DNA from: a phage
Direction: 5' to 3' (one strand)
Sequence record: PZ495249.1
Length of the DNA stretch: 64,000 nucleotides
In this document: piece by piece, positions 4,570 to 39,386 of the stretch
Layout: the number at the start of each line of letters is the position of its first letter
Position numbering within the stretch: position 1 is the stretch's first letter
The notes under the pieces: generated by a model
The model's input: the letters and a program-made list of their open reading frames with translations, nothing else
Database searches by the model: none
Told to the model about the DNA's origin: nothing
Program-made: the position numbers and the translations under genes

Positions 4570-5094
4570 TTGCTGATACGAAACTTTGTAACAATTGCGT
4601 TACTATCATTAACTGCTTTTACATTTACACCTGTAATCGGCGTTGCCGAAGCTGCAAACGTAAAGACCGCTAAAGTAGTCCACAAGTGTACAAAGCGAGA
4701 TACGAAAGAAAATCTTTTAGCTTGTGCAATGTACGCAGAGAGCCGTAACCAAGGAAAGAAAGGAATGGCTGCTGTCGGTAATGTTGTTCTGAATCGTGTT
4801 AACGATCCTCAGTTCCCTAAGACCGTCAAAGGTGTTCTCTTCCAACCAGGACAATTCTCATACACGTATAAAGGCGCATTTAATGTCGTCGAAAAGGACA
4901 GATGGCAGGAGGCAAAGCATATTGCTGATCGCTTAATCTACCTTGATAAGAACTTCCCCGAAGCTCGTGATGCAACAGATGTAACGAAAGGGGCTAAGTA
5001 TTTCAAAAAGAAGAATATCCGTACCCATTGGGAGAAGGATATGATCTTGGTGTACCGTTACAAGGAACATCAATTCTATATACCTAAGAGCTAA
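4570..5094 (+). CDS. SleB-like cell-wall hydrolase with N-terminal signal peptide (candidate secreted endolysin)
   Basis: AMYAESRNQ...GNVVLNRV...FPKTV...QPGQFS resembles the Hydrolase_2/SleB family; predicted signal peptide MLIRNFVTIALLSLTAFTFTPVIGVAEAA; probable TTG start at 4570 after RBS aggagg. Confidence 0.6.
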   Translation: MLIRNFVTIALLSLTAFTFTPVIGVAEAANVKTAKVVHKCTKRDTKENLLACAMYAESRNQGKKGMAAVGNVVLNRVNDPQFPKTVKGVLFQPGQFSYTYKGAFNVVEKDRWQEAKHIADRLIYLDKNFPEARDATDVTKGAKYFKKKNIRTHWEKDMILVYRYKEHQFYIPKS

Positions 5095-25999: not shown

Positions 26000-27487
26000 T
26001 TAGACTCCGTATTCGTATGAAATGTTTTCAAGGTCGAATGATGGTACAACGTTGTACGCAGGAACGATATCGCTCTCAGTGTATTTACTGTCATCCTCAG
26101 TATTAAGTTTAACATAAACACGCAGAGAAGTCAAGCGTCCAAACGCCAGAGCGGAATAAATTACCCCTTTAATCTGGTCGTTAGTAACAGTTGAACCTAA
26201 TTCGAAGTAAGCTTGCAGGTCAGAGAGAGCCTTGACAATGTTTTCTCTTTCTGTCGTACTTAGAGTAGAACCGTTAGCACTCTGATAAACCAGTTTCAGA
26301 GAGTAAACTTGGCTATCACCTGGAGAGAAACGAATAATCTCTTGACCACCGTCTTCCGTTGTGATAGTAATAGCTGTAGTCCCATAAGTCAGGGTGTTGA
26401 TTGGCTTAGTGTCATAAATAACTTTAGCCACTTCCTCAGCGTTACCACCGAATACGATAGTTTGGAAAGTAAAGGCTGGTGCATATGTCTGATCGTGCAG
26501 TGTCGGGTTATCATAAATCTTAACCTTAGTTACACCGTCAGTTAACAGCAGAGCTTTGACAATCGCAGCACGAGTAGCAGCATTTGCTTCATCAAGGTTG
26601 TCATTGAAACGTGAACGGAATTCCGCATCGGTTTCAACATCACGACCTGGGGAGAATGCATAGAAGTTACCAGTGTCTAAGTAACCCGCAAATGTTGAAG
26701 AGATACCAGTGATACTCTCCACGCCAACAGGGTTATATCCAGCCTCTGCACCAACGACAGGAATTTCACTCCACTTAATTCCGATAGGAATGGAAGCGTA
26801 GAATTTCATTGGAGTAACAAGCCCAACGGGATTAACGTTATCTGAGGTATTAAAACCTACGTATACGTTGCTTGAATCGTTCCATACAAGGTTTCTATCC
26901 GTGATAGATACGTTTGCCTTAATGAAATTCATTAAGTCTGTAATGAACGTTGTAGAGTTCGGATTTAGCGTTTTACTGTTCAGACCACCATCACTTGCGT
27001 TCTGCATGTAGAATGTAATAGCGTTTACACCAGATCCTGTTGCGTTAGCCTTGGAAATAGTGTATGCTCCAATCTTAGCATTAAGCATGGTAGGAGTGCT
27101 GACGTAATATGTCAAGTCGTTATCTGCATTGAAATAGGTTTCTGTGCCTAATTCATAAGTCCAAGCAGCTTTGTTGTTTGTCTTAACGTAAGCATAACCA
27201 CTACCAGCAGATGCACCTTGGCGGTAGAAACCACGTTTAGAGAAAATCTCGTCGAGGTAAATACCTTCTGCGCCATCTAAGGTTTGCGTGTTATAGACAC
27301 CCTGCATACCTTCCCACAATGTGTAGTCGGTGTATGCAACAATGCGGAACAACTGCCCGAAAACCGTATCTTCGGAAGTTGCAGTGTCTGCCCCGAAAGT
27401 GTTTTTCAGGGAAGTCATGTAGTTATTCAGAATGTCATCGAATGTCGGGATTACAAATCCCGCATCTGTTAGGCCATAATCTGCCAT
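26000..27487 (-). CDS. baseplate J-like protein
   Basis: 495 aa; size and position typical of Baseplate_J proteins. Confidence 0.5.
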   Translation of the reverse strand: MADYGLTDAGFVIPTFDDILNNYMTSLKNTFGADTATSEDTVFGQLFRIVAYTDYTLWEGMQGVYNTQTLDGAEGIYLDEIFSKRGFYRQGASAGSGYAYVKTNNKAAWTYELGTETYFNADNDLTYYVSTPTMLNAKIGAYTISKANATGSGVNAITFYMQNASDGGLNSKTLNPNSTTFITDLMNFIKANVSITDRNLVWNDSSNVYVGFNTSDNVNPVGLVTPMKFYASIPIGIKWSEIPVVGAEAGYNPVGVESITGISSTFAGYLDTGNFYAFSPGRDVETDAEFRSRFNDNLDEANAATRAAIVKALLLTDGVTKVKIYDNPTLHDQTYAPAFTFQTIVFGGNAEEVAKVIYDTKPINTLTYGTTAITITTEDGGQEIIRFSPGDSQVYSLKLVYQSANGSTLSTTERENIVKALSDLQAYFELGSTVTNDQIKGVIYSALAFGRLTSLRVYVKLNTEDDSKYTESDIVPAYNVVPSFDLENISYEYGV

Positions 27488-27735
27488 TAATCTTCCTCCT
27501 TCTTATCAGGGGCAGGTGTTCTGCCCCAACGTAGATCGATCAGATTCTTCATTAAGCGTGAAGGTGTGATCATGAAAACGAAAGCCCAACCCATCCACTC
27601 AGGGATCTCTTTTTCGATCCCTAAGAAGATGAACATTCCTGTCATGGTAAGCATTCCGACTGCGTTCCACACTTTGGTAGAACTAACTTTGCTGTTTGGA
27701 TAAGTACAAAACATTCCGATTAAAAATTTCTTCAT
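27487..27735 (-). CDS. small membrane protein
   Basis: 82 aa with two or three hydrophobic segments (GMLTMTGMFIFLGI, WMGWAFVFMITP); overlapping stops and starts with both neighbours. Confidence 0.45.
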   Translation of the reverse strand: MKKFLIGMFCTYPNSKVSSTKVWNAVGMLTMTGMFIFLGIEKEIPEWMGWAFVFMITPSRLMKNLIDLRWGRTPAPDKKEED

Positions 27736-30566
27736 TGGTTTTTTCTCAAGTCAATGCCAATATCTGGTAGGCTTGACTGCGGATTCAGTTCACGGTAAAG
27801 TGCATACAGACCGAAGCCACGTAGCAATTCACCTGCGTGGAAACCGAAGAACATGCCGTTGTCCGTATTGGCGCGAGGTGCAACACTCCAGCTTCCGTTC
27901 ATTGGATGATTAGGAGTCAGAATGATGTAATTTTCTTGGATCAGTTCGAAGCAACGATCAGCCACAATACCGATGTTAGGAATTTGATTTTCCAGACCAG
28001 CAAGACCAACATAAGAACATCCAGCCATCCACAACGCTGACATGTGACTTGTGAAGTCATCAATAGGTGCAAGCACTGTTCCATCTGGGTTAAAGATGGT
28101 TGGTGTACGTCCATCATTATGATCCTGGAACCATTTCAGGTAATCAACCCAGTTCTTAACAACTGTCAGTAGTTTAGGTGGAATAGGCTCGTTACGAGCT
28201 TTTAGTTCGTGCAGACAACGTGCAGCACAATAGAATGCGCGAGCTTCGTATCCATCCCAAGCTTTCTCGTTCCAGTGTTTCATTGTGAACTCATTGGTGT
28301 CACCGTATTTCTTAGCATCCCAACGATCCCATACGAATGCTTGAGCCATAGGACCAGGCATTACAGGATTGAATGTTGTGTAGAACCATTGTTGAGCGTC
28401 ATAAAGGAAGTTGATACTTTCATTCAGACGTGTATAATCAATGTTCTGACCTTTGAAGCAATACAGAGTAGGGTACTGGTATCCTGGGTATGGAAGTCCA
28501 CGCCATCCATCAAACAAAGCCGTATTAGGGTCACTGATGTTGGAGAACGGGATAATACCAGGTGTGTAGTACAAACTGTTTAGCTTATAGTCGATGATTA
28601 CACAATCACCAAGTTTGGCATTGTACGGATTGCTTCCCTGTACCGTGATACGGAAATACATGGTATAATCATCACCACTCGTAGAGGAGTAGGTGGTAGG
28701 TACGTCATTAACGCAATACCAATCAATTTTACCATTTACACCGTTCACTGGATCTGTATCCAGCACCAGGTTGATTTGATCTACATGGCTTAAATCAATA
28801 ACAGATGGTTTAGGATCTGTCTCTGGGTGGTTAGGCTGATAAGCACTTAATTTGAAGCTTGCTGGAGTTAGGTTTAATGTAGACCATGCACCACCAGTTT
28901 TCGGAACCATAGCCCACCATCTCCATCCGGCAGCATCTGTAATCGTGATATTAAAATCATCGTTGTAAGATCTGTACGATAGAGACTTTAAGTTTGTTGT
29001 CTCAGCATCAAGTAACCAGAAACCGATAGTGATACCACCATCGCCATCCATTGTTGCACTGCAAATCTGATCACTAATTCCTGATAGAATGTTAGTAGTA
29101 TACTGGAATTGTACCACAGTATTATCACCCCAGTCAACAACAATTCGTGGATCTGCAATAATATATTGACCACCACCAGGAGGAGTTGAACGGACGAAGT
29201 TATATAGCGGAATATCCATTGACTGAATCGCTGTTGTACCTAATGGCAAACCACAACGATACTCAACTAAATCATTCTCAGTTTTTGATTTACTCAGTGA
29301 TAATTCAGGGCGGAACAGCAGACCATTACCTGCATCATCTACACCGGAGAATTGAACACGGAGTTTAGAATTCTGATCTACACGGAACCAGATTGCTTGT
29401 TGTTCCAGTGTAGTTTGTGCAGCCACATTCTGACGAATTGTGATATAACCCTTTGAGTCACGTCCATATACCGGAGTAGCATCTGAGGGGTATGTGTAAT
29501 CATAACTGATACCGTCAGTAAATGGAATAGCTGCCATTGTTGATTTACGGAAGAATTTATCAAAACGGTCAATATCTGAATAGTCGATACATACCATTAA
29601 TGAAGACTGCCAGCAAAGCCAGTATTTTCTTTCTCCAGTAATTTTATACATGATGTAGTTAACATCGCACCACCATGTCTCAGCATCCGAGGCATTGTCT
29701 GCGAAGTCAAGAGAAATAGGAACGTTCACAGGACGGTTATGCCACATTTCATTACGTCCCATTAAATATCCACCTTTATCCACCGGATTGCAAGTTGCGT
29801 AATTGAACTTGTGGTTTCCATTTAATGTTGTGTTCTTTAACTGAACTGTTCCATATTCGGCAACAGAATACCCTTCTTGGATAATATTTCCGTCCCAATC
29901 CACTTTACGTCCCAGGCGGTCGATAATCCAATCCACATCATATTGCTGTCCCTTAGCATCCCAGTTTGTTGATCCGTCAGCGTTAGCAGCATATACTGTT
30001 GCGTTAACAGAATTCCAACCTAAGTTACCGTCGAAAGCGAACCATGCTTTGTCCAGATATTCACCCCAATGCGGAGCACCGTGAGGAATAACAGTACGCC
30101 CGTTTGTCCATGTCATCATGCTTCCTTTGAAGCCACCATGAGTAGGATATCCGTCATCGGTTAACGGGTAGTGTGCCAGGCGCGGTTCTTTCCCGTTAAT
30201 GATCCAGTTAGGACGATATTTAGCCGGAGGATCAGGAATAGGTTGACCACCGAAGAAGTGATCAATATAGGCTTGCCAGTATTTCTTAGCAGAGTCTAAA
30301 TATTTCTTATCCCCCGTAGCAAGATATGCATAGGCACATCCAAGAATCAGCACTGATTGACCTTCGGTAGTAGCGTCACCATTTGGCTGACCTTCTTGAC
30401 CTGTCCAGTTAATAAAGTGTCTGTTGTTCGCTAATACGAATTGTGGGTTGAATACGTAGTGTTGAACTGTAGGATCAATAGTCAAACCCGTATTACGATC
30501 AAGGAACTGAATATGTCCCTCAATCAATTGAAAAGCATTGTCAATATTGTGCTGTGTTCTTGACAT
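27732..30566 (-). CDS. large baseplate/tail-associated protein, function unknown
   Basis: 944 aa, Trp/Tyr/Asn-rich; embedded among baseplate genes. Confidence 0.5.
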   Translation of the reverse strand: MSRTQHNIDNAFQLIEGHIQFLDRNTGLTIDPTVQHYVFNPQFVLANNRHFINWTGQEGQPNGDATTEGQSVLILGCAYAYLATGDKKYLDSAKKYWQAYIDHFFGGQPIPDPPAKYRPNWIINGKEPRLAHYPLTDDGYPTHGGFKGSMMTWTNGRTVIPHGAPHWGEYLDKAWFAFDGNLGWNSVNATVYAANADGSTNWDAKGQQYDVDWIIDRLGRKVDWDGNIIQEGYSVAEYGTVQLKNTTLNGNHKFNYATCNPVDKGGYLMGRNEMWHNRPVNVPISLDFADNASDAETWWCDVNYIMYKITGERKYWLCWQSSLMVCIDYSDIDRFDKFFRKSTMAAIPFTDGISYDYTYPSDATPVYGRDSKGYITIRQNVAAQTTLEQQAIWFRVDQNSKLRVQFSGVDDAGNGLLFRPELSLSKSKTENDLVEYRCGLPLGTTAIQSMDIPLYNFVRSTPPGGGQYIIADPRIVVDWGDNTVVQFQYTTNILSGISDQICSATMDGDGGITIGFWLLDAETTNLKSLSYRSYNDDFNITITDAAGWRWWAMVPKTGGAWSTLNLTPASFKLSAYQPNHPETDPKPSVIDLSHVDQINLVLDTDPVNGVNGKIDWYCVNDVPTTYSSTSGDDYTMYFRITVQGSNPYNAKLGDCVIIDYKLNSLYYTPGIIPFSNISDPNTALFDGWRGLPYPGYQYPTLYCFKGQNIDYTRLNESINFLYDAQQWFYTTFNPVMPGPMAQAFVWDRWDAKKYGDTNEFTMKHWNEKAWDGYEARAFYCAARCLHELKARNEPIPPKLLTVVKNWVDYLKWFQDHNDGRTPTIFNPDGTVLAPIDDFTSHMSALWMAGCSYVGLAGLENQIPNIGIVADRCFELIQENYIILTPNHPMNGSWSVAPRANTDNGMFFGFHAGELLRGFGLYALYRELNPQSSLPDIGIDLRKNQ

Positions 30567-34670: not shown

Positions 34671-36629
34671 TTATCCGCCAGTTGATGAACCACCACTTGA
34701 CATTTGTAATGTCAGTGACTGAGTGTATGAGTTACTGAATTCATTCATACGAGCATCAAACATGTTCTGGAATCCGTAGCTGTCTGGTGTAATCAGAACT
34801 TGGAACGCCTCTTTAGGGATCGTCAGAGTGTTCTGTACTAATAGTTGAGACTGCGTAGGACGATAAGAGTTAGCACCAAGAGTTGCTTGGTTAGCAGCAA
34901 AACTGTATGGGTCCATACTTGCGTAGCTGTTTGCAAATCCAACCTGGTTCGGACCGAGAGCAGCCTGTCCAGCCATAAGGTTAGGATCTTGTACGCCAGG
35001 GATCATGTTCAGATTGGCTGCGCTATTCATCATACTATTCCAACGAGCTACCAACCAACCAACTGCACTATCTTCATAGTACAAGCCGTTATCGGAAAGT
35101 TTTTCATGCTTATTCTCAGGATTAATACTTACAACCCAACTTGCAAGAGATGCAAGAGCGACAGCAATTTCACCCGCTGATTTACCGATCTCTTTCGCTG
35201 CATTCATGAATAGAGGAACATTCTTCTGGAACTCAGGAGCTTCCTTCATTGCATCCATGAAACCAACCACCATGTTAGCGCTAAAACCGTCACCGAACTG
35301 ATTCATTTTCTCTGAAAGAATAACGTACTGTTGAGCGGCTTTGATTTGTTGATCAGTTAGCGCACCACCAGTTTGAGTTAACTGGCGAACCATGTCCATG
35401 TACTCTTTACCGTTGTCCAGGAACATACGTTGGTAGTGCATTAAGTCATCACCTAAGTTTTCCATTAGACGACCAATCTGCGCAGAGTTCATACCACGAC
35501 GCTGACCTTCATTCACAGTTGCCTGGATAAAGTCAAGAGGTCTGTTCTGGAATTGTTTAAGCTGATCAATGTTCCAACCAAACTGGTTCATGATATCGTT
35601 AATACCGCTATCACCACCTTTCCACTTCCCTGATTTTTGGTCAAAGGTAGAGTTCATCGCAGAGTTACCTAAGCGTTCACGAACGTCTTTGATGTTGTCG
35701 ATTGCTTTGATGATGTTAGCTGAGTCAACACCGTTCACACGTCCCCAGGCTTGCATAGCTAAGATTGCGTTAGGGTTAGTCTGTACGTTCTGAGCACCAC
35801 GAGAAATCATGTTGGTACGTTCAGCACTCTTCGACATTGTTTCCTGAATACGGCGTAGTCCTTCAACCACTCCAGCACCAAGAATAGCCCCTGCAATCAT
35901 GCTTGGGTTAAGTCCTAAACCACCTTCTTTGATTCTATCATAACGACGAGCACGATCTCTTGCTCTTTGATCCTGTTCACGCTTCTGTTCACGTTCACGA
36001 AGTTTACGTTCTCTTTCACGTTGACGAATACGGGCTTTTGCGATAGCCTCTTCTTCACGTTTGACACGGCGACGGCCTCTCACTTCATCTTCGATCTCTG
36101 CGTTCTTAGCGCGGTGAGAACGACGAATGTTATCAAGCTGATGAGCCATTGTTTGGTTTAAACGTTGAAGAGTGATTTGCTCTTGACGATATAAATCTAA
36201 CGTCTGTGAGACAATACGGTTTGCTTGTTGGAGTGTAGCGTTATCGGCTTTTGGAAGCTGTGCTGCTCGGAACGAGAAGTTTTCCATCTTCATGTTCGCG
36301 ATATCATTTCTACGTACAGCCGGATCTACCTTCGGTGGTTTTGGCGGCTTAGGTGGACGTGGAGGAGGTGGCGCGGGTGGTGGATTACCACCGCCAGCAC
36401 CTGGAGGAGGATTGCCCCCTCCGGCTCCGCGCATAGCGTCACGAATACGTTTAGCGTAACGTTCCATCTCTTGCATCTGGCGTCTAATCTTCGTCATGTT
36501 CAATGACGGTTGAATACCTTCCGCAAAATTTTTGATACCTTGGATGGAATCCTTTGCCTCTTTCAGACTCTGTTTATCCACCGTAAAGGTAACGGTGTTT
36601 TTGATTTTCGAAGTGTTAATTTCTAACAA
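34671..36629 (-). CDS. tail tape measure protein
   Basis: 652 aa; Lys/Arg/Glu coiled-coil tract, Pro/Gly-rich GGGNPPPGAGGGNPPP segment; located after the chaperone frameshift pair. Confidence 0.65.
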   Translation of the reverse strand: MLEINTSKIKNTVTFTVDKQSLKEAKDSIQGIKNFAEGIQPSLNMTKIRRQMQEMERYAKRIRDAMRGAGGGNPPPGAGGGNPPPAPPPPRPPKPPKPPKVDPAVRRNDIANMKMENFSFRAAQLPKADNATLQQANRIVSQTLDLYRQEQITLQRLNQTMAHQLDNIRRSHRAKNAEIEDEVRGRRRVKREEEAIAKARIRQRERERKLREREQKREQDQRARDRARRYDRIKEGGLGLNPSMIAGAILGAGVVEGLRRIQETMSKSAERTNMISRGAQNVQTNPNAILAMQAWGRVNGVDSANIIKAIDNIKDVRERLGNSAMNSTFDQKSGKWKGGDSGINDIMNQFGWNIDQLKQFQNRPLDFIQATVNEGQRRGMNSAQIGRLMENLGDDLMHYQRMFLDNGKEYMDMVRQLTQTGGALTDQQIKAAQQYVILSEKMNQFGDGFSANMVVGFMDAMKEAPEFQKNVPLFMNAAKEIGKSAGEIAVALASLASWVVSINPENKHEKLSDNGLYYEDSAVGWLVARWNSMMNSAANLNMIPGVQDPNLMAGQAALGPNQVGFANSYASMDPYSFAANQATLGANSYRPTQSQLLVQNTLTIPKEAFQVLITPDSYGFQNMFDARMNEFSNSYTQSLTLQMSSGGSSTGG

Positions 36630-36644
36630 GGGATTCCTCCGCTA

Positions 36645-36995
36645 TTACTCGTTAGGGATCATATTCTTGAAGACATTATCCAGTTGTTTAACTGTACGTT
36701 GTTGTCCTCGTTTAATATCATGATCTTTGGCATAAAGCGCCTCAACATATTCTTCGTAAGTCAGATATTCATACAACTTGAGAAGATAGTCCACCCCGTA
36801 GTTATCCAGCGTGTACAATGTTTCAGAGGTGTGTTTCACTACTTTACAGAGAATAACTTCATACCATGTTAAGCTAATTGTTTGCGAGGCAATGTCAATT
36901 GCATGTTTAATGGCTGGATTTAGCTCTTCGCCAGGCTCTCTATTCCTTTGAACTGTGTCAACAGTTTTCCGAAACCTCGTTTGAAAAAAGGGGAA
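36645..36995 (-). CDS. -1 frame extension of the tail assembly chaperone (GT-like product)
   Basis: The -1 frame is open from the slippery site at 36993..36999 down to the stop at 36645 and contains ORF 36645..36839. Confidence 0.55.
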   Translation of the reverse strand, partial: FPFFQTRFRKTVDTVQRNREPGEELNPAIKHAIDIASQTISLTWYEVILCKVVKHTSETLYTLDNYGVDYLLKLYEYLTYEEYVEALYAKDHDIKRGQQRTVKQLDNVFKNMIPNE

Positions 36996-37402
36996 TAGTT
37001 CACCTCAAGAACTTTCGCAGTTAATTCAATTACGAGTTCAGGGTGAGCAAAGAATAATTCGTCGAAGTTTTCTGATACGTTATGACCAGATTCAGTATAA
37101 ACCTCATCAAGAATTTTCTGGAGGAATAACGCCAGGTTCTTTTCTTCCAATCCTGAGAATAGCTGAATAAGTGCCATCGCAATACGCGCTTCAAGATCCT
37201 CGTCTGCTGACGAAGTAGCCGTGTCATACATGATCATTGGGACAGCTAATACGCTTCCCAGTTCAGGAATCCTTTCAAATACTTTGGTTGGACTCCATTT
37301 TAAAATTCTGAATCGGACAGAACGACCTTCATCAAGTTCAATGTCTACGATTTCTTCTGGACGTGCATACTTTTGGATAGTATTATCTTTCTGTTTTTCC
37401 AT
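36920..37402 (-). CDS. tail assembly chaperone (G-like, 0-frame product)
   Basis: Sits between tube and tape measure; start set at ATG 37402 after RBS gagagaggaatatata; slippery heptamer 18 codons before its stop. Confidence 0.6.
   Translation of the reverse strand: MEKQKDNTIQKYARPEEIVDIELDEGRSVRFRILKWSPTKVFERIPELGSVLAVPMIMYDTATSSADEDLEARIAMALIQLFSGLEEKNLALFLQKILDEVYTESGHNVSENFDELFFAHPELVIELTAKVLEVNYSPFFKRGFGKLLTQFKGIESLAKS
36993..36999 (-). other. programmed -1 ribosomal frameshift slippery heptamer T_TTT_TTC
   Basis: Minus sense ccT TTT TTC in the X_XXY_YYZ register of the 0 frame. Confidence 0.55.
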
Positions 37403-37425
37403 TATATATTCCTCTCTCAAAAAAT

Positions 37426-37446
37426 AAAGGGCATTGCTGCCCTTTT
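37426..37446 (-). terminator. intrinsic terminator after the tail tube gene
   Basis: Minus sense AAAGGGCA-GCAA-TGCCCTTT followed by ATTTTTT. Confidence 0.5.
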
Positions 37447-37449
37447 ATA

Positions 37450-37929
37450 TTACTGAATGGTCAGCGCAGAAATTGAGTTCAGCGCGTTAACGCCAACACC
37501 AATTGTTGAGCGAAGCAGAGTCGCATCTTGCAGACCGATTACCCACTGGTTTTCCTGAATAGTGTCACCGATGGTATCGTCTGGTTGACTTTGAATCCAA
37601 CCAATGGTAGTAATGTAGTAACCGCGAGGGTCTTCCAGGTATACGCTGAAAGCTACTGCGCGAGTAGAATACATTTGCTGTGCATAGGCTGAAAGAACTT
37701 CATTAGCCGGAGATGTACGTTGCAAAGACATAGTTAGCGTACCAAGACGGTTACGGCTAAGCGCTAATGAAACATCACCATCAGTACCAGCATATGGGTT
37801 GATGATATCGTTGGTTTTAGATACTACGATCTTAGTATCTGAGGCAAAGCCCCACGGTTCCCAACCACCCAGAGAAAGAATTACCTGAGAAGGGTCGTAG
37901 GCCATCATGCCTGTAAGCATTTTATCCAA
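37450..37929 (-). CDS. tail tube protein
   Basis: 159 aa directly downstream of the sheath gene. Confidence 0.55.
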   Translation of the reverse strand: MDKMLTGMMAYDPSQVILSLGGWEPWGFASDTKIVVSKTNDIINPYAGTDGDVSLALSRNRLGTLTMSLQRTSPANEVLSAYAQQMYSTRAVAFSVYLEDPRGYYITTIGWIQSQPDDTIGDTIQENQWVIGLQDATLLRSTIGVGVNALNSISALTIQ

Positions 37930-37979: not shown

Positions 37980-39386
37980 TTATGAGGATACTGTAGTGCT
38001 GTTAGAGTTCTGTACGTTGGCAGTACGGTTCGTTAGAACGTTCACCTGCACTTTAACGTAGTGGAAGAATCCAGCATATACATACTCAATCACCATACCG
38101 TCTACCAGGCGCTGGTTGATTTGCGCATCGGTCATGTCGGCACGAGATGGGATGTAAACCGTTGGTTTCAGACTCACAAGCAGTCCAGTTTCTTCTGAGG
38201 TAACTACTTCGTTAGAAATAGAACCGTTACGAATACCCACTTGGATTGGGTTTGCCATTACCGCTTGACGAATCAGAGCGATACCAGCAGATGTTGCACG
38301 AACACCGCTTCCAAGCATTGATTGCTGCTTGAACAGAGTGAATAGAGATTCTTCTGTACGAGCTTTGAACCACAGTGAGTGAACAACGTAGTCAACGAAG
38401 AACCCATTAACCATGAAGCCATCACGATAGAACAGTACGCCGTGTTCTTTACGGTAGATGTTACCATTCTGTTGAACAATATAGTTCTCGGAAGTCTGAT
38501 CCAGTTTTTCAATCTCAATACCAACCAGAGTCTTACCGTGAAGGGTAGTCGTACCAGGTTGAGCAGAGCAGATTGAACCTACAACCGCAGCTTCTGGGAA
38601 TACAGTGTCAGCTTTCGTCATCCACAGGGCAAAACAAGTGTTCACATAACCCATGTCGCCAAGGCGTTCAAGGATGTTATCTGTGGCCTTAGTTTTGATG
38701 CCAGGTTCAGAGCTTGAGAAGAAGTACACTTTATCGTGTTCTTCAACATACCCTGCTACGTCAATGATATCCTGATCTACGTGAGAATCAGAAACTACCC
38801 AGAAGTAACTGTTATCTTCGTTAGAGATTGCTGTCAGATCTTCGAGAATAGAGTTCTCATAAGTTGTTACGCTTGTGAAACCTTGGCTTGATACGGAAGC
38901 AAATTTACCTGCTTTCGGTGCGAAGGTCATCTTAGCTCCATCGTTTGCCACGGTGAAGAAAGCGTTATAAGTTGTGTCTGCGTTGATCATTTCGGTTAAA
39001 CCTACTACGATCTCTTGCGCAGTTGCAGTGTCGTCAGAAACGAACTTGAAGTCCTTGCTCTTAGTACCGTTCTTGATAGTTACAATGTAGGTGTAGCTAT
39101 CTGTTACAATCGGTGTTAGAGTGAACTGGTCAACGTCACGTTTACCAACGATTACTTGTTGTGGTGCGAACAGTCCATCAAATAGCAGTTTTGCCATTTT
39201 ATAAGCTGGATCGCTCGTACTGAAACCTGCCGCCAGAAGTGCATCTGACGAAGTGAAGTAGTCAACTAAATTACCTGTTACAGAATGCCCTGTAAGAATT
39301 AGCGGAATGTCGAACTGAACTTCACTAATTGCAGTAGCACCGTAGGTAAGAGTAACGGAAACTACCTTTTCGCGAAAAGTTGCCAT
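37980..39386 (-). CDS. tail sheath protein
   Basis: 468 aa; size and position upstream of tube typical of contractile tail sheath. Confidence 0.6.
   Translation of the reverse strand: MATFREKVVSVTLTYGATAISEVQFDIPLILTGHSVTGNLVDYFTSSDALLAAGFSTSDPAYKMAKLLFDGLFAPQQVIVGKRDVDQFTLTPIVTDSYTYIVTIKNGTKSKDFKFVSDDTATAQEIVVGLTEMINADTTYNAFFTVANDGAKMTFAPKAGKFASVSSQGFTSVTTYENSILEDLTAISNEDNSYFWVVSDSHVDQDIIDVAGYVEEHDKVYFFSSSEPGIKTKATDNILERLGDMGYVNTCFALWMTKADTVFPEAAVVGSICSAQPGTTTLHGKTLVGIEIEKLDQTSENYIVQQNGNIYRKEHGVLFYRDGFMVNGFFVDYVVHSLWFKARTEESLFTLFKQQSMLGSGVRATSAGIALIRQAVMANPIQVGIRNGSISNEVVTSEETGLLVSLKPTVYIPSRADMTDAQINQRLVDGMVIEYVYAGFFHYVKVQVNVLTNRTANVQNSNSTTVSS

What the first reader, a model, noticed from the sequence alone, without database searches (positions are those of the whole stretch)
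36645..37402. Programmed -1 frameshift in the tail assembly chaperone, missed by the ORF track
A T_TTT_TTC slippery heptamer in the 0-frame register lies 18 codons before the stop of the chaperone gene, and the -1 frame stays open from that site to 36645, absorbing the separately listed ORF 36645..36839. This is the conserved G/GT-type arrangement between tube and tape measure genes.
Basis: partly seen in the sequence, partly recalled or inferred. Interest (0 to 1): 0.4.

Follow-up and report, generated by a model that had tools for sequence, protein, structure and literature searches.

The report
Tail chaperone G/GT programmed frameshift
This phage's tail assembly chaperone gene almost certainly makes a second, longer protein when ribosomes slip back one base at a conserved CCCTTTTTTC site; this is an ordinary, well-known phage arrangement that gene callers and public annotations of its relatives routinely miss.

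Summary
On the minus strand, the tail assembly chaperone gene (37402..36920, 160 aa) lies between the tube gene and the tape measure gene. It carries T_TTT_TTC (36989..36983) in the 0-frame register, overlapped by a second in-frame heptamer, C_CCT_TTT. The -1 frame is open from 37004 to the stop at 36647..36645, which gives a 252-aa fusion. One detail is wrong: 20 sense codons, not 18, separate the site from the stop.

- All 56 related loci recovered with the motif (Stephanstirmvirinae, Vequintavirinae, metagenomic viral contigs) keep NNT TTT TTC in register, followed by a -1 ORF of 101-127 codons. Where checked, that ORF ends just before the tape measure gene.
- Synonymous sites inside the heptamer never vary, while flanking ones do.
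- The stretch 36920..36840 has no start codon but evolves as coding sequence in the -1 frame.
- Candidate start codons are not conserved.
- A Rheinheimera relative has G_GGA_AAG instead, which argues for ribosomal rather than transcriptional slippage.

No downstream RNA structure was found. An upstream GAGGTG may act as a stimulator.

This is a new member of a known kind (lambda G/GT). None of the 20 relatives' records I inspected annotates the frameshift. Nothing here is experimental.

The parts
36920..37402 (-). Tail assembly chaperone 'G' (TAC-N), 160 aa, 0-frame product. ATG at 37402, stop TAA at 36922..36920.
   Evidence: Searches give the ORF. Pfam PF21822 Phage_TAC_15 E = 6e-22. phrog_3840 tail assembly chaperone E = 4.9e-50. 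Homologues in relatives start with the same MEKQKDN/MEQQKDN.
36983..36992 (-). Slippery decamer C_CCT_TTT_TTC. It consists of two overlapping in-register heptamers, C_CCT_TTT (36992..36986) and T_TTT_TTC (36989..36983). T_TTT_TTC is the one shared with all relatives.
   Evidence: NNT TTT TTC is invariant in 31 distinct nucleotide contexts, while the neighbouring Y/G/N codons vary at synonymous sites. Both motifs belong to the H_HH.U_UU.Y class, among the most efficient -1 motifs in E. coli (PMC4066793).
36645..36983 (-). -1 frame extension ('T' part), 112 codons plus stop TAA at 36647..36645. The first -1 codon, CAA, re-reads C36983. The GT fusion is join(37402..36983, 36983..36645), 252 aa.
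   Evidence: The C-terminal 72 residues match phrog_16039 (function unknown, E = 1.8e-38). The T domain is homologous to that of Seunavirus (35% identity over 66 aa, E = 1e-13), and the alignment starts at T residue 27, upstream of the listed ORF's start.
36840..36920 (-). 27 codons of the -1 frame between the G stop and the first start codon (GTG 36839) of the listed small ORF. An ORF track treats this as non-coding, but it evolves as coding sequence.
   Evidence: Nei-Gojobori comparison of 11 sequences: pS 0.79 against pN 0.31. Differences by codon position are 497/398/944, the same pattern as in the listed ORF.
36645..36839 (-). The separately listed 64-aa ORF (GTG start, no Shine-Dalgarno motif). 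It is the C-terminal part of the T extension, not a gene of its own.
   Evidence: Annotators of relatives chose different starts or no gene at all.
37001..37006 (-). Shine-Dalgarno-like GAGGTG (codons L-E-V), 12 nt upstream of T_TTT_TTC and 9 nt upstream of C_CCT_TTT. It is a possible dnaX-type upstream stimulator (inferred, not shown).
   Evidence: GAG is used at this Glu codon in 37 of 42 distinct G genes, against 24% GAG at other Glu codons of the same genes. 38 of 47 genes have GGAG/GAGG/AGGA within 18 nt upstream. It is absent in Certrevirus-type and some Mydovirus-type sequences.
37005..37007 (-). TGA that closes the -1 frame 5 codons before the -1 frame reaches the T run, so the -1 ORF opens only at the slip site.
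   Evidence: The same '*GEL.PFF' pattern is seen in relatives.
34671..36629 (-). Tape measure protein gene (652 aa, TTG start with GGAGG at 36640..36636). It begins 15 nt after the T stop.
   Evidence: phrog_16039 neighbour phrog_16051, tail length tape measure protein, E = 1.6e-240.
37450..37929 (-). Tail tube gene (159 aa), immediately upstream.
   Evidence: Pfam KPP10_Orf10 E = 7.2e-07 and phrog_280. Annotated as tail tube in phages Paula and EduardKellenberger.
37426..37445 (-). Terminator-like hairpin plus T run between the tube gene and the chaperone gene (context feature).
   Evidence: Terminators are annotated at the same intergenic spot in phage Paula.

Best explanation
Most ribosomes translate the chaperone gene normally and make G (160 aa). 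A minority slip back one base on C_CCU_UUU_UUC. The tRNAs on CCU/UUU or UUU/UUC re-pair with CCC/UUU or UUU/UUU. Those ribosomes continue in the -1 frame for 112 codons and make GT (252 aa, junction ...EVNYSPFF-QTRFRK...).

By analogy with lambda, G and the G part of GT coat the tape measure protein. The rare T domain recruits the tube protein, so the tube polymerises around the tape measure. Neither protein ends up in the virion.

Shown here: the sequence anatomy, its conservation, and coding constraint on the -1 frame. Inferred: that the fusion protein is made, how efficiently, what the T domain binds, and any stimulation by the upstream GAGGTG.
For: - Position: the gene sits between the tube gene and the tape measure gene and belongs to a TAC family.
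- Motif: an in-register heptamer of a class that is efficient in E. coli.
- Reading frame: the -1 frame opens only at the site and closes 15 nt before the tape measure start.
- Conservation: 56 of the 57 related loci held at that point keep NNT TTT TTC in register with a -1 ORF of 101-127 codons, across Stephanstirmvirinae and Vequintavirinae at about 30% amino-acid identity.
- Wider relatives: Felixounavirus Si3 has T_TTT_TTC at the aligned ..ANFGSFF and its -1 ORF ends at the tape measure start. Rheinheimera phage Barba has G_GGA_AAG a few codons downstream, followed by a homologous T domain.
- Synonymous sites within the heptamer are invariant while neighbouring ones vary.
- The start-less stretch 36920..36840 shows pS 0.79 against pN 0.31 and a third-position excess in the -1 frame.
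- The first possible start codon in the T frame wanders between codon 29 and codon 84 and almost never has a Shine-Dalgarno motif.
- The conserved T domain begins upstream of the listed ORF.
- tblastn with the fusion protein finds two pieces in adjacent frames in relatives.
- The same recoding is annotated or proposed in related tail modules (Moogle, PMC4319497; Adele, PMC12846349).
Against: - There is no experimental evidence for the fusion protein in this phage or in any Stephanstirmvirinae or Vequintavirinae phage that I could find.
- No downstream stimulatory structure was found. The 83 nt after the site fold no better than shuffles (z = 0.08), and the alignment gives no consensus pairs.
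- Slippery motifs without stimulators gave only low frameshifting in E. coli reporters, so the efficiency is uncertain.
- The FF dipeptide is conserved in G, so part of the nucleotide conservation could reflect protein constraint.
- The related sequences are not independent samples.
Confidence: 0.9

Rival explanations
1. Transcriptional slippage. RNA polymerase adds one extra U while copying the T6 run, so a fraction of the mRNAs carries the T part in frame. The protein product is identical, but ribosomes do not shift.
For: The conserved element is a homopolymeric T6 run, the GTTTTT/TTTTTT motif noted across related families. No ribosomal stimulator structure was found. [quoted passage not shown]
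Against: - Six Ts is a short run; by my own knowledge, productive slippage usually needs about 7-9 or more. The paper read here notes only that 7-base U/A runs are avoided in E. coli genes.
- The run is always in the X_XXY_YYZ register.
- Relatives with a homologous T domain use G_GGA_AAG (Barba) or A_AAT_TTT (Vibrio S4-7). These have no long homopolymer and can only work by tRNA re-pairing.
Confidence: 0.06
2. Two separate genes. The small downstream ORF (36839..36645, 64 aa) is translated on its own from GTG 36839 or by re-initiation after the G stop, as public records of relatives annotate it. The heptamer is then incidental.
For: Gene callers and GenBank or RefSeq records list a separate 'hypothetical protein' here. 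PHROGs has a family for the short form (phrog_16039).
Against: - The window has no ATG/GTG/TTG in that frame for 55 codons upstream of 36839, yet those codons are under purifying selection.
- GTG 36839 has no Shine-Dalgarno motif. Candidate starts shift between codon 29 and codon 84 among relatives, and several records annotate no gene at all.
- The conserved T domain starts upstream of the listed ORF.
Confidence: 0.03
3. Chance. An in-frame heptamer happens to precede a long open -1 frame, with no biological role.
For: In-register heptamers are common (41 in the window's long ORFs), and 1% of in-gene positions have -1 runs of at least 112 codons.
Against: Both features are conserved in all relatives that share the motif, at the same aligned residue, over about 70% protein divergence. 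The -1 frame also carries coding-type substitution patterns.
Confidence: 0.01

Closest known systems
Phage lambda G/GT tail assembly chaperone frameshift (Levin et al. 1993; Xu et al. 2004, 2013, 2014; reviewed in PMC5009743)
   Same: Two overlapping ORFs lie between the major tail/tube gene and the tape measure gene. A -1 slip on an X_XXY_YYZ heptamer near the 3' end of G produces a minor fusion product. The -1 ORF has no start of its own. No strong downstream structure is required.
   Different: The heptamer is U_UUU_UUC (plus an overlapping C_CCU_UUU) instead of G_GGA_AAG. The phage is a contractile-tailed myovirus of about 150 kb. Neither G nor T has detectable sequence similarity to lambda G or T beyond assignment to a different Pfam TAC family (PF21822). 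Efficiency and binding partners are untested.
P2 E/E+E' and Mu-type chaperone frameshifts in contractile-tailed phages (Christie et al. 2002, from my own knowledge; the P2 efficiency note is in PMC5009743)
   Same: Gene order is sheath, tube, chaperone with a -1 frameshift, tape measure, in a myovirus. As I recall, the P2 slip site is also T-rich.
   Different: No sequence homology was tested or found here. The tail module of this phage belongs to the DUF3383-sheath / KPP10_Orf10-tube lineage, not the P2 lineage.
[quoted passage not shown]
   Same: The tail module lineage is related: tube protein tblastn hits reach Nankokuvirus, Pakpunavirus-like and Felixounavirus phages. A poly-T slip site lies near the 3' end of TAC-N, at the motif N[YF]G.[FV]F. 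The -1 frame is uninterrupted up to the tape measure gene, and the downstream piece is routinely mis-annotated as a hypothetical protein.
   Different: That paper did not analyse Stephanstirmvirinae or Vequintavirinae chaperones. Here the site is a full canonical heptamer (a double one in the window), preceded by C rather than G. PAK_P5 has only GGTTTTTC, a tetramer-type site.
E. coli dnaX and IS911/IS3 -1 frameshift signals (upstream Shine-Dalgarno-like element, heptamer, downstream hairpin or pseudoknot; PMC4066793)
   Same: A heptamer with a Shine-Dalgarno-like GAGG(T) lies 9-12 nt upstream, within the range I recall as stimulatory for -1 shifts.
   Different: No downstream hairpin or pseudoknot was found. 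The Shine-Dalgarno-like element is not universal among relatives, and its effect is untested.

Membership tests
G/GT-type tail assembly chaperone with programmed -1 frameshift (lambda paradigm) | The gene pair lies between the major tail/tube gene and the tape measure gene. | tested here: met
   Order on the minus strand is sheath 39386..37980, tube 37929..37450, G 37402..36920, T to 36645, tape measure 36629..34671.
G/GT-type tail assembly chaperone with programmed -1 frameshift (lambda paradigm) | The upstream ORF belongs to a tail assembly chaperone protein family. | tested here: met
   PF21822 Phage_TAC_15, 79 bits against a cut-off of 22. phrog_3840, E = 4.9e-50.
G/GT-type tail assembly chaperone with programmed -1 frameshift (lambda paradigm) | A slippery heptamer X_XXY_YYZ sits in the 0-frame register near the 3' end of G. 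| tested here: met
   T_TTT_TTC at 36989..36983 and C_CCT_TTT at 36992..36986, 20 codons before the stop.
G/GT-type tail assembly chaperone with programmed -1 frameshift (lambda paradigm) | The -1 ORF overlaps the end of G, lacks its own conserved start, and extends to the tape measure gene. | tested here: met
   The -1 frame is open 37004..36645. The first start codon is at 36839 in the window and varies from codon 29 to codon 84 in relatives.
G/GT-type tail assembly chaperone with programmed -1 frameshift (lambda paradigm) | The site and the -1 ORF are conserved in relatives, with coding constraint on the -1 frame. | tested here: met
   56 of 57 loci keep the site and a -1 ORF of more than 100 codons. 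pS 0.79 against pN 0.31 in the start-less stretch.
G/GT-type tail assembly chaperone with programmed -1 frameshift (lambda paradigm) | The fusion protein is made at a low, fixed ratio to G and is required for tail assembly. | not testable with these tools
   This needs mass spectrometry, a reporter assay and genetics. No published data were found for this phage group.
G/GT-type tail assembly chaperone with programmed -1 frameshift (lambda paradigm) | Fold similarity to solved tail assembly chaperones. | tested here: inconclusive
   AF2 model of G has pLDDT 70.3. Foldseek against the PDB gives nothing with E below 0.6; the HK97 chaperone 2ob9 ranks 7th, E = 1.4, TM 0.32/0.43. The PDB sequence search found nothing. 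The single-sequence T model was too poor to use (pLDDT 47.6).
Poly-T (GTTTTT) TAC-N/TAC-NC frameshift of Vandenendeviridae/Andersonviridae (PMC12846349) | A related tail module with a conserved poly-T motif near the 3' end of TAC-N and an uninterrupted -1 frame. | tested here: met
   The tube protein reaches these groups by tblastn. Si3 has AGTTTTTTC and PAK_P5 has GGTTTTTC at the aligned N[YF]G.[FV]F motif, each with a -1 ORF running to the tape measure gene. The window has CCTTTTTTC, with no G before the run.
dnaX/IS911-type stimulated -1 frameshift signal | A Shine-Dalgarno-like element about 10-14 nt upstream of the heptamer. | tested here: inconclusive
   GAGGTG lies at 37006..37001, 12 and 9 nt upstream of the two heptamers. 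GAG is preferred at this codon in 37 of 42 genes against 24% elsewhere, but the element is missing in some lineages and the sequences are related to each other.
dnaX/IS911-type stimulated -1 frameshift signal | A downstream hairpin or pseudoknot 5-9 nt after the heptamer. | tested here: not met
   The minimum free energy is no better than shuffles (z = 0.08). RNAalifold predicts 0 pairs on 10 sequences. The window's small hairpin is broken in relatives. Rfam gives nothing relevant.

The most novel reading that the evidence does not exclude
The signal may be an unusual stimulator-light design. It would combine a 10-nt double heptamer (C_CCU_UUU_UUC, two chances to slip with one identical product) with a selectively maintained upstream Shine-Dalgarno-like GAGG(T) in place of any downstream RNA structure. 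The slip position would be pinned to one spot of the chaperone fold (N-[YF]-G-x-F-F) across at least five phage lineages: Stephanstirmvirinae, Vequintavirinae, Ounavirinae, Nankokuvirus/Pakpunavirus and Barbavirus. Meanwhile the slippery motif itself has been exchanged (T_TTT_TTC, G_GGA_AAG, GTTTTT). That would make this an old, position-constrained recoding site useful for studying how frameshift efficiency is tuned.
Probability: 0.3. Interest if true: 0.35.

Novelty: new member of a known kind. Interest (0 to 1): 0.2.

Why it matters
The main value is for annotation. The gene should be written as join(37402..36983, 36983..36645) with ribosomal_slippage, and the 64-aa 'hypothetical protein' should be removed.

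The same correction applies to the Stephanstirmvirinae and Vequintavirinae records I inspected. All 17 list two separate genes or leave a gap. A search of 5.8 billion proteins returned only G-length products, with no fusion.

Biologically, the result extends the near-universal G/GT rule to the phi92/phAPEC8/rV5 group of large therapeutic-candidate coliphages. It also links this group to the poly-T chaperone frameshift recently proposed for Pakpunavirus and Felix O1 relatives. It does not change any concept.

Tried and rejected
- **Downstream stimulatory structure.** Single-sequence folding of 36982..36900 gave z = 0.08 against shuffles. RNAalifold on 10 diverse relatives gave no pairs. The AACUGU/ACAGUU hairpin in the window is not conserved.
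- **Rfam scan of 36500..37500.** Only two sub-threshold chance hits.
- **PDB sequence search with the fusion protein.** No hit at E <= 1.
- **AlphaFold2 on the T part alone.** pLDDT 47.6, unusable.
- **AlphaFold2 on G with 19 sequences.** pLDDT 70.3, but Foldseek against the PDB gave no significant match. The HK97 chaperone appeared only at E = 1.4.
- **+1 frame alternative.** In the 13 relatives where I checked it, the +1 frame closes within 6-52 codons.
- **A second frameshift candidate in the window.** A_AAA_AAC lies at the end of the 944-aa ORF 30566..27732, followed by 83 open -1 codons. This is just the next gene, with its own ATG in an ATGA overlap.
- **Literature searches.** I looked for a described frameshift in phi92, rV5, phAPEC8, PVP-SE1, Justusliebigvirus and Phapecoctavirus and found none. 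Only the related Adele and Moogle reports turned up.

Full report
**What is in the sequence.** All genes here are on the minus strand. The order is:
- tail sheath, 39386..37980 (DUF3383, phrog_205);
- tail tube, 37929..37450 (KPP10_Orf10, phrog_280);
- a 160-aa protein, 37402..36920;
- a listed 64-aa ORF, 36839..36645;
- the tape measure protein, 36629..34671 (phrog_16051, E = 1.6e-240).

The 160-aa protein matches Pfam Phage_TAC_15 (E = 6e-22, 79 bits against a cut-off of 22) and phrog_3840, tail assembly chaperone (E = 4.9e-50). Its 0-frame reads ...TCC CCT TTT TTC AAA....

A slip at either one gives the same protein (...NYSPFF-QTRFRK...).

The -1 frame is closed by TGA at 37007..37005. It is then open until TAA at 36647..36645, 15 nt before the tape measure start codon. 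That gives 112 codons after the slip and a 252-aa fusion.

One detail in the finding is off: 20 sense codons, not 18, lie between the TTC codon and the G stop.

**Is it more than chance?** Within the window, long ORFs contain 41 in-register heptamers in 19,250 codons. The median -1 extension after such a heptamer is 7 codons, and this site has the longest at 112-113. The next longest is 83 codons, after A_AAA_AAC at the end of ORF 30566..27732. That one is simply the following gene, with its own ATG in an ATGA overlap. A random run of 112 open codons has probability 0.0013, and 1% of all in-gene positions reach that length. On its own this is suggestive. The comparative data settle it.

**Relatives.** The window belongs to a phage of the Stephanstirmvirinae type (phi92/phAPEC8 relatives):
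- It shares about 77-79% nucleotide identity with Justusliebigvirus, Phapecoctavirus and Citrobacter phage Tr1.
- It shares 82% amino-acid identity across the fusion with Klebsiella phage phi1_175008.
- Two IMG/VR contigs encode a chaperone 99% identical to the window's.

I collected 17 GenBank or RefSeq loci and 39 IMG/VR loci. They span Stephanstirmvirinae and the Vequintavirinae genera Vequintavirus, Seunavirus, Mydovirus, Certrevirus and Henunavirus, down to about 30% chaperone identity.

- In 56 of the 57 loci held at that point, NNT TTT TTC is present in register at the aligned motif ..(E/K)(V/I)NY(G/S/A)(P/C)FF. It is followed by a -1 ORF of 101-127 codons that, where checked, ends just before the tape measure gene.
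- The exception, Vibrio phage S4-7, has A_AAT_TTT at the neighbouring codon, with a 120-codon -1 ORF.
- The IMG/VR loci were retrieved with degenerate peptide patterns, so nucleotide choice was not pre-selected.
- Among 31 distinct nucleotide contexts, the Pro/Cys codon always ends in T and the Phe codons are always TTT then TTC. The adjacent Asn, Tyr and Gly codons vary at synonymous sites. In the window's own genes, CCT makes up 36% of Pro codons and TTT 36% of Phe codons.

**The -1 frame is coding where no start codon exists.** In the window, the first ATG/GTG/TTG of the -1 frame is the GTG at 36839, 48 codons after the slip.

I compared 11 Stephanstirmvirinae-type sequences by the Nei-Gojobori method over the 27 codons between the G stop and that GTG (36920..36840). 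This gave pS 0.79 against pN 0.31. Differences by codon position were 497/398/944, the same pattern as in the listed ORF (1300/868/2027) and in G itself (dN/dS 0.17).

The first candidate start codon in the T frame ranges from codon 29 to codon 84 among relatives and almost never has a Shine-Dalgarno motif. The T domain of the window aligns to the Seunavirus T domain at 35% identity over 66 residues (E = 1e-13). That alignment starts at T residue 27, upstream of the listed ORF. The listed 64-aa ORF is therefore a fragment of a larger domain that can only be reached from the G frame.

**Ribosomal or transcriptional slippage?** The conserved element is a T6 run, so insertion of an extra U by RNA polymerase would give the same protein. 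Three observations favour the ribosome:
- The run is always in the tandem-slippage register.
- Six Ts is a short run for productive transcriptional slippage (my own knowledge).
- More distant phages with the same tail module, and in Barba's case a clearly homologous T domain, use motifs without a long homopolymer.

The wider relatives look like this:
- Rheinheimera phage Barba has G_GGA_AAG, the lambda motif, five codons downstream.
- Vibrio phage S4-7 has A_AAT_TTT.
- Felixounavirus Si3 has T_TTT_TTC at ..ANFGSFF, and its -1 ORF ends exactly at the tape measure start.
- Nankokuvirus PAK_P5 has GGTTTTTC.

Both U_UU.U_UU.C and C_CC.U_UU.U belong to the H_HH.U_UU.Y class, which is listed among the most efficient -1 motifs in E. 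coli. Both gave more than 0.1% frameshifting without any stimulator (PMC4066793).

**Stimulators.**
- I found no downstream structure. The 83 nt after the site fold no better than shuffles (z = 0.08). RNAalifold on ten diverse relatives predicts no pairs. A small hairpin in the window is broken in relatives. Rfam has nothing relevant.
- Upstream, the L-E-V codons form GAGGTG at 37006..37001, which lies 12 nt and 9 nt before the two heptamers.
- That Glu codon is GAG in 37 of 42 distinct chaperone genes, against 24% GAG elsewhere in the same genes. 38 of 47 genes carry GGAG/GAGG/AGGA within 18 nt upstream.
- This resembles the dnaX/IS911 upstream stimulator. However, it is missing in Certrevirus-type sequences, and the sequences are related to one another. 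I treat it as a hypothesis.

**How it most likely works.**
1. Most ribosomes terminate at 36922..36920 and make G.
2. A minority slip -1 on CCCUUUUUUC and make GT.
3. By analogy with lambda (PMC5009743), many copies of G plus a few of GT coat the tape measure protein.
4. The T domain recruits the tube protein to start polymerisation.
5. Both chaperones then leave the finished tail.

The anatomy, the conservation and the coding constraint are shown here. Production of the fusion, its efficiency and the binding partners are inferred.

**Comparison with what is known.** This is the classic G/GT arrangement. Every defining feature that sequence analysis can test was met. Fold similarity to solved chaperones was inconclusive:
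- The G model had pLDDT 70.3, and the best chaperone hit, HK97 2ob9, scored only E = 1.4.
- The single-sequence T model had pLDDT 47.6.

Closely related tail modules already carry the idea. [quoted passage not shown] A December 2025 paper proposes a conserved -1 frameshift at GTTTTT in Vandenendeviridae and Andersonviridae.

I found no paper describing it for phi92-, phAPEC8-, rV5- or PVP-SE1-type phages. None of the 20 public records I inspected annotates a joined CDS. They list two genes with inconsistent starts, or leave a gap. A search of 5.8 billion predicted proteins with the fusion returned 40 hits, all G-length (158-175 aa, at most 60% of the query covered).

**Verdict.** This is a new member of a well-known kind. 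Its value is mainly as an annotation correction, plus a modest extension of a recently proposed clade-wide poly-T chaperone frameshift. Interest is low to moderate (0.2).

Noticed in passing
window 37426..37445 (-): A terminator-like hairpin (AAAGGGCAGCAATGCCCTTT followed by a T run) lies between the tube gene and the chaperone gene. Phage Paula has terminators annotated at the same intergenic spot. It could lower chaperone and tape measure transcription relative to sheath and tube.
   Followed up: partly
window 37402 vs 37420 (-): The mechanical ORF list starts the chaperone at TTG 37420. ATG 37402, with GAGAGG 8 nt upstream, matches the N-termini of homologues (MEKQKDN/MEQQKDN) and is the likely true start.
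   Followed up: yes
window 27732..27745 (-), end of ORF 30566..27732: A_AAA_AAC lies three codons before the stop of a 944-aa ORF, followed by an 83-codon open -1 frame. This is only the next gene (27735..27487, 82 aa, hydrophobic), which has its own ATG in an ATGA overlap. It is not a recoding site.
   Followed up: yes
window about 36315..36434 (-), within the tape measure protein, residues about 66-105: A low-complexity Gly/Pro tract with an internal repeat (GAGGGNPPPGAGGGNPPPAPPPPRPPKPPKPPK) lies near the N-terminus of the tape measure protein. I did not examine it further.
   Followed up: no
window 37001..37006 (-); L001-L056: A Shine-Dalgarno-like GAGG(T)/GGAGG sits 9-13 nt upstream of the slip site. 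The Glu codon in it is GAG in 37 of 42 distinct genes, against 24% GAG elsewhere in the same genes. It is also present in Felixounavirus Si3 (GGAGG, 13 nt upstream).
   Followed up: partly
L059 (Rheinheimera phage barba_12-6I) 3929..3935; L058 (Salmonella phage Si3) 3859..3865; L057 (PAK_P5) about 4868..4875: Related tail modules place a different slippery motif at nearly the same position of the chaperone: G_GGA_AAG in Barba, T_TTT_TTC in Si3 and GGTTTTTC in PAK_P5. Each is followed by a long -1 ORF. In Barba an opposite-strand gene is inserted between the T ORF and the tape measure gene.
   Followed up: partly
window 36627..36640 (-): The tape measure gene starts with TTG (36629), preceded by a strong GGAGG (36640..36636). 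This lies 15 nt after the T stop, which is itself followed by a second in-frame stop (TAA TAG).
   Followed up: no
L018, L019 (IMG/VR UViG 3300048927_000012, 3300048913_000007); P0001 (JGI, contig 153,725 bp): Metagenomic contigs encode chaperones 97-99% identical to the window's. No isolate in the phage collection exceeds about 80% nucleotide identity over 20 kb of the structural module. The window therefore represents a lineage of Stephanstirmvirinae-like phages with no sequenced isolate.
   Followed up: partly
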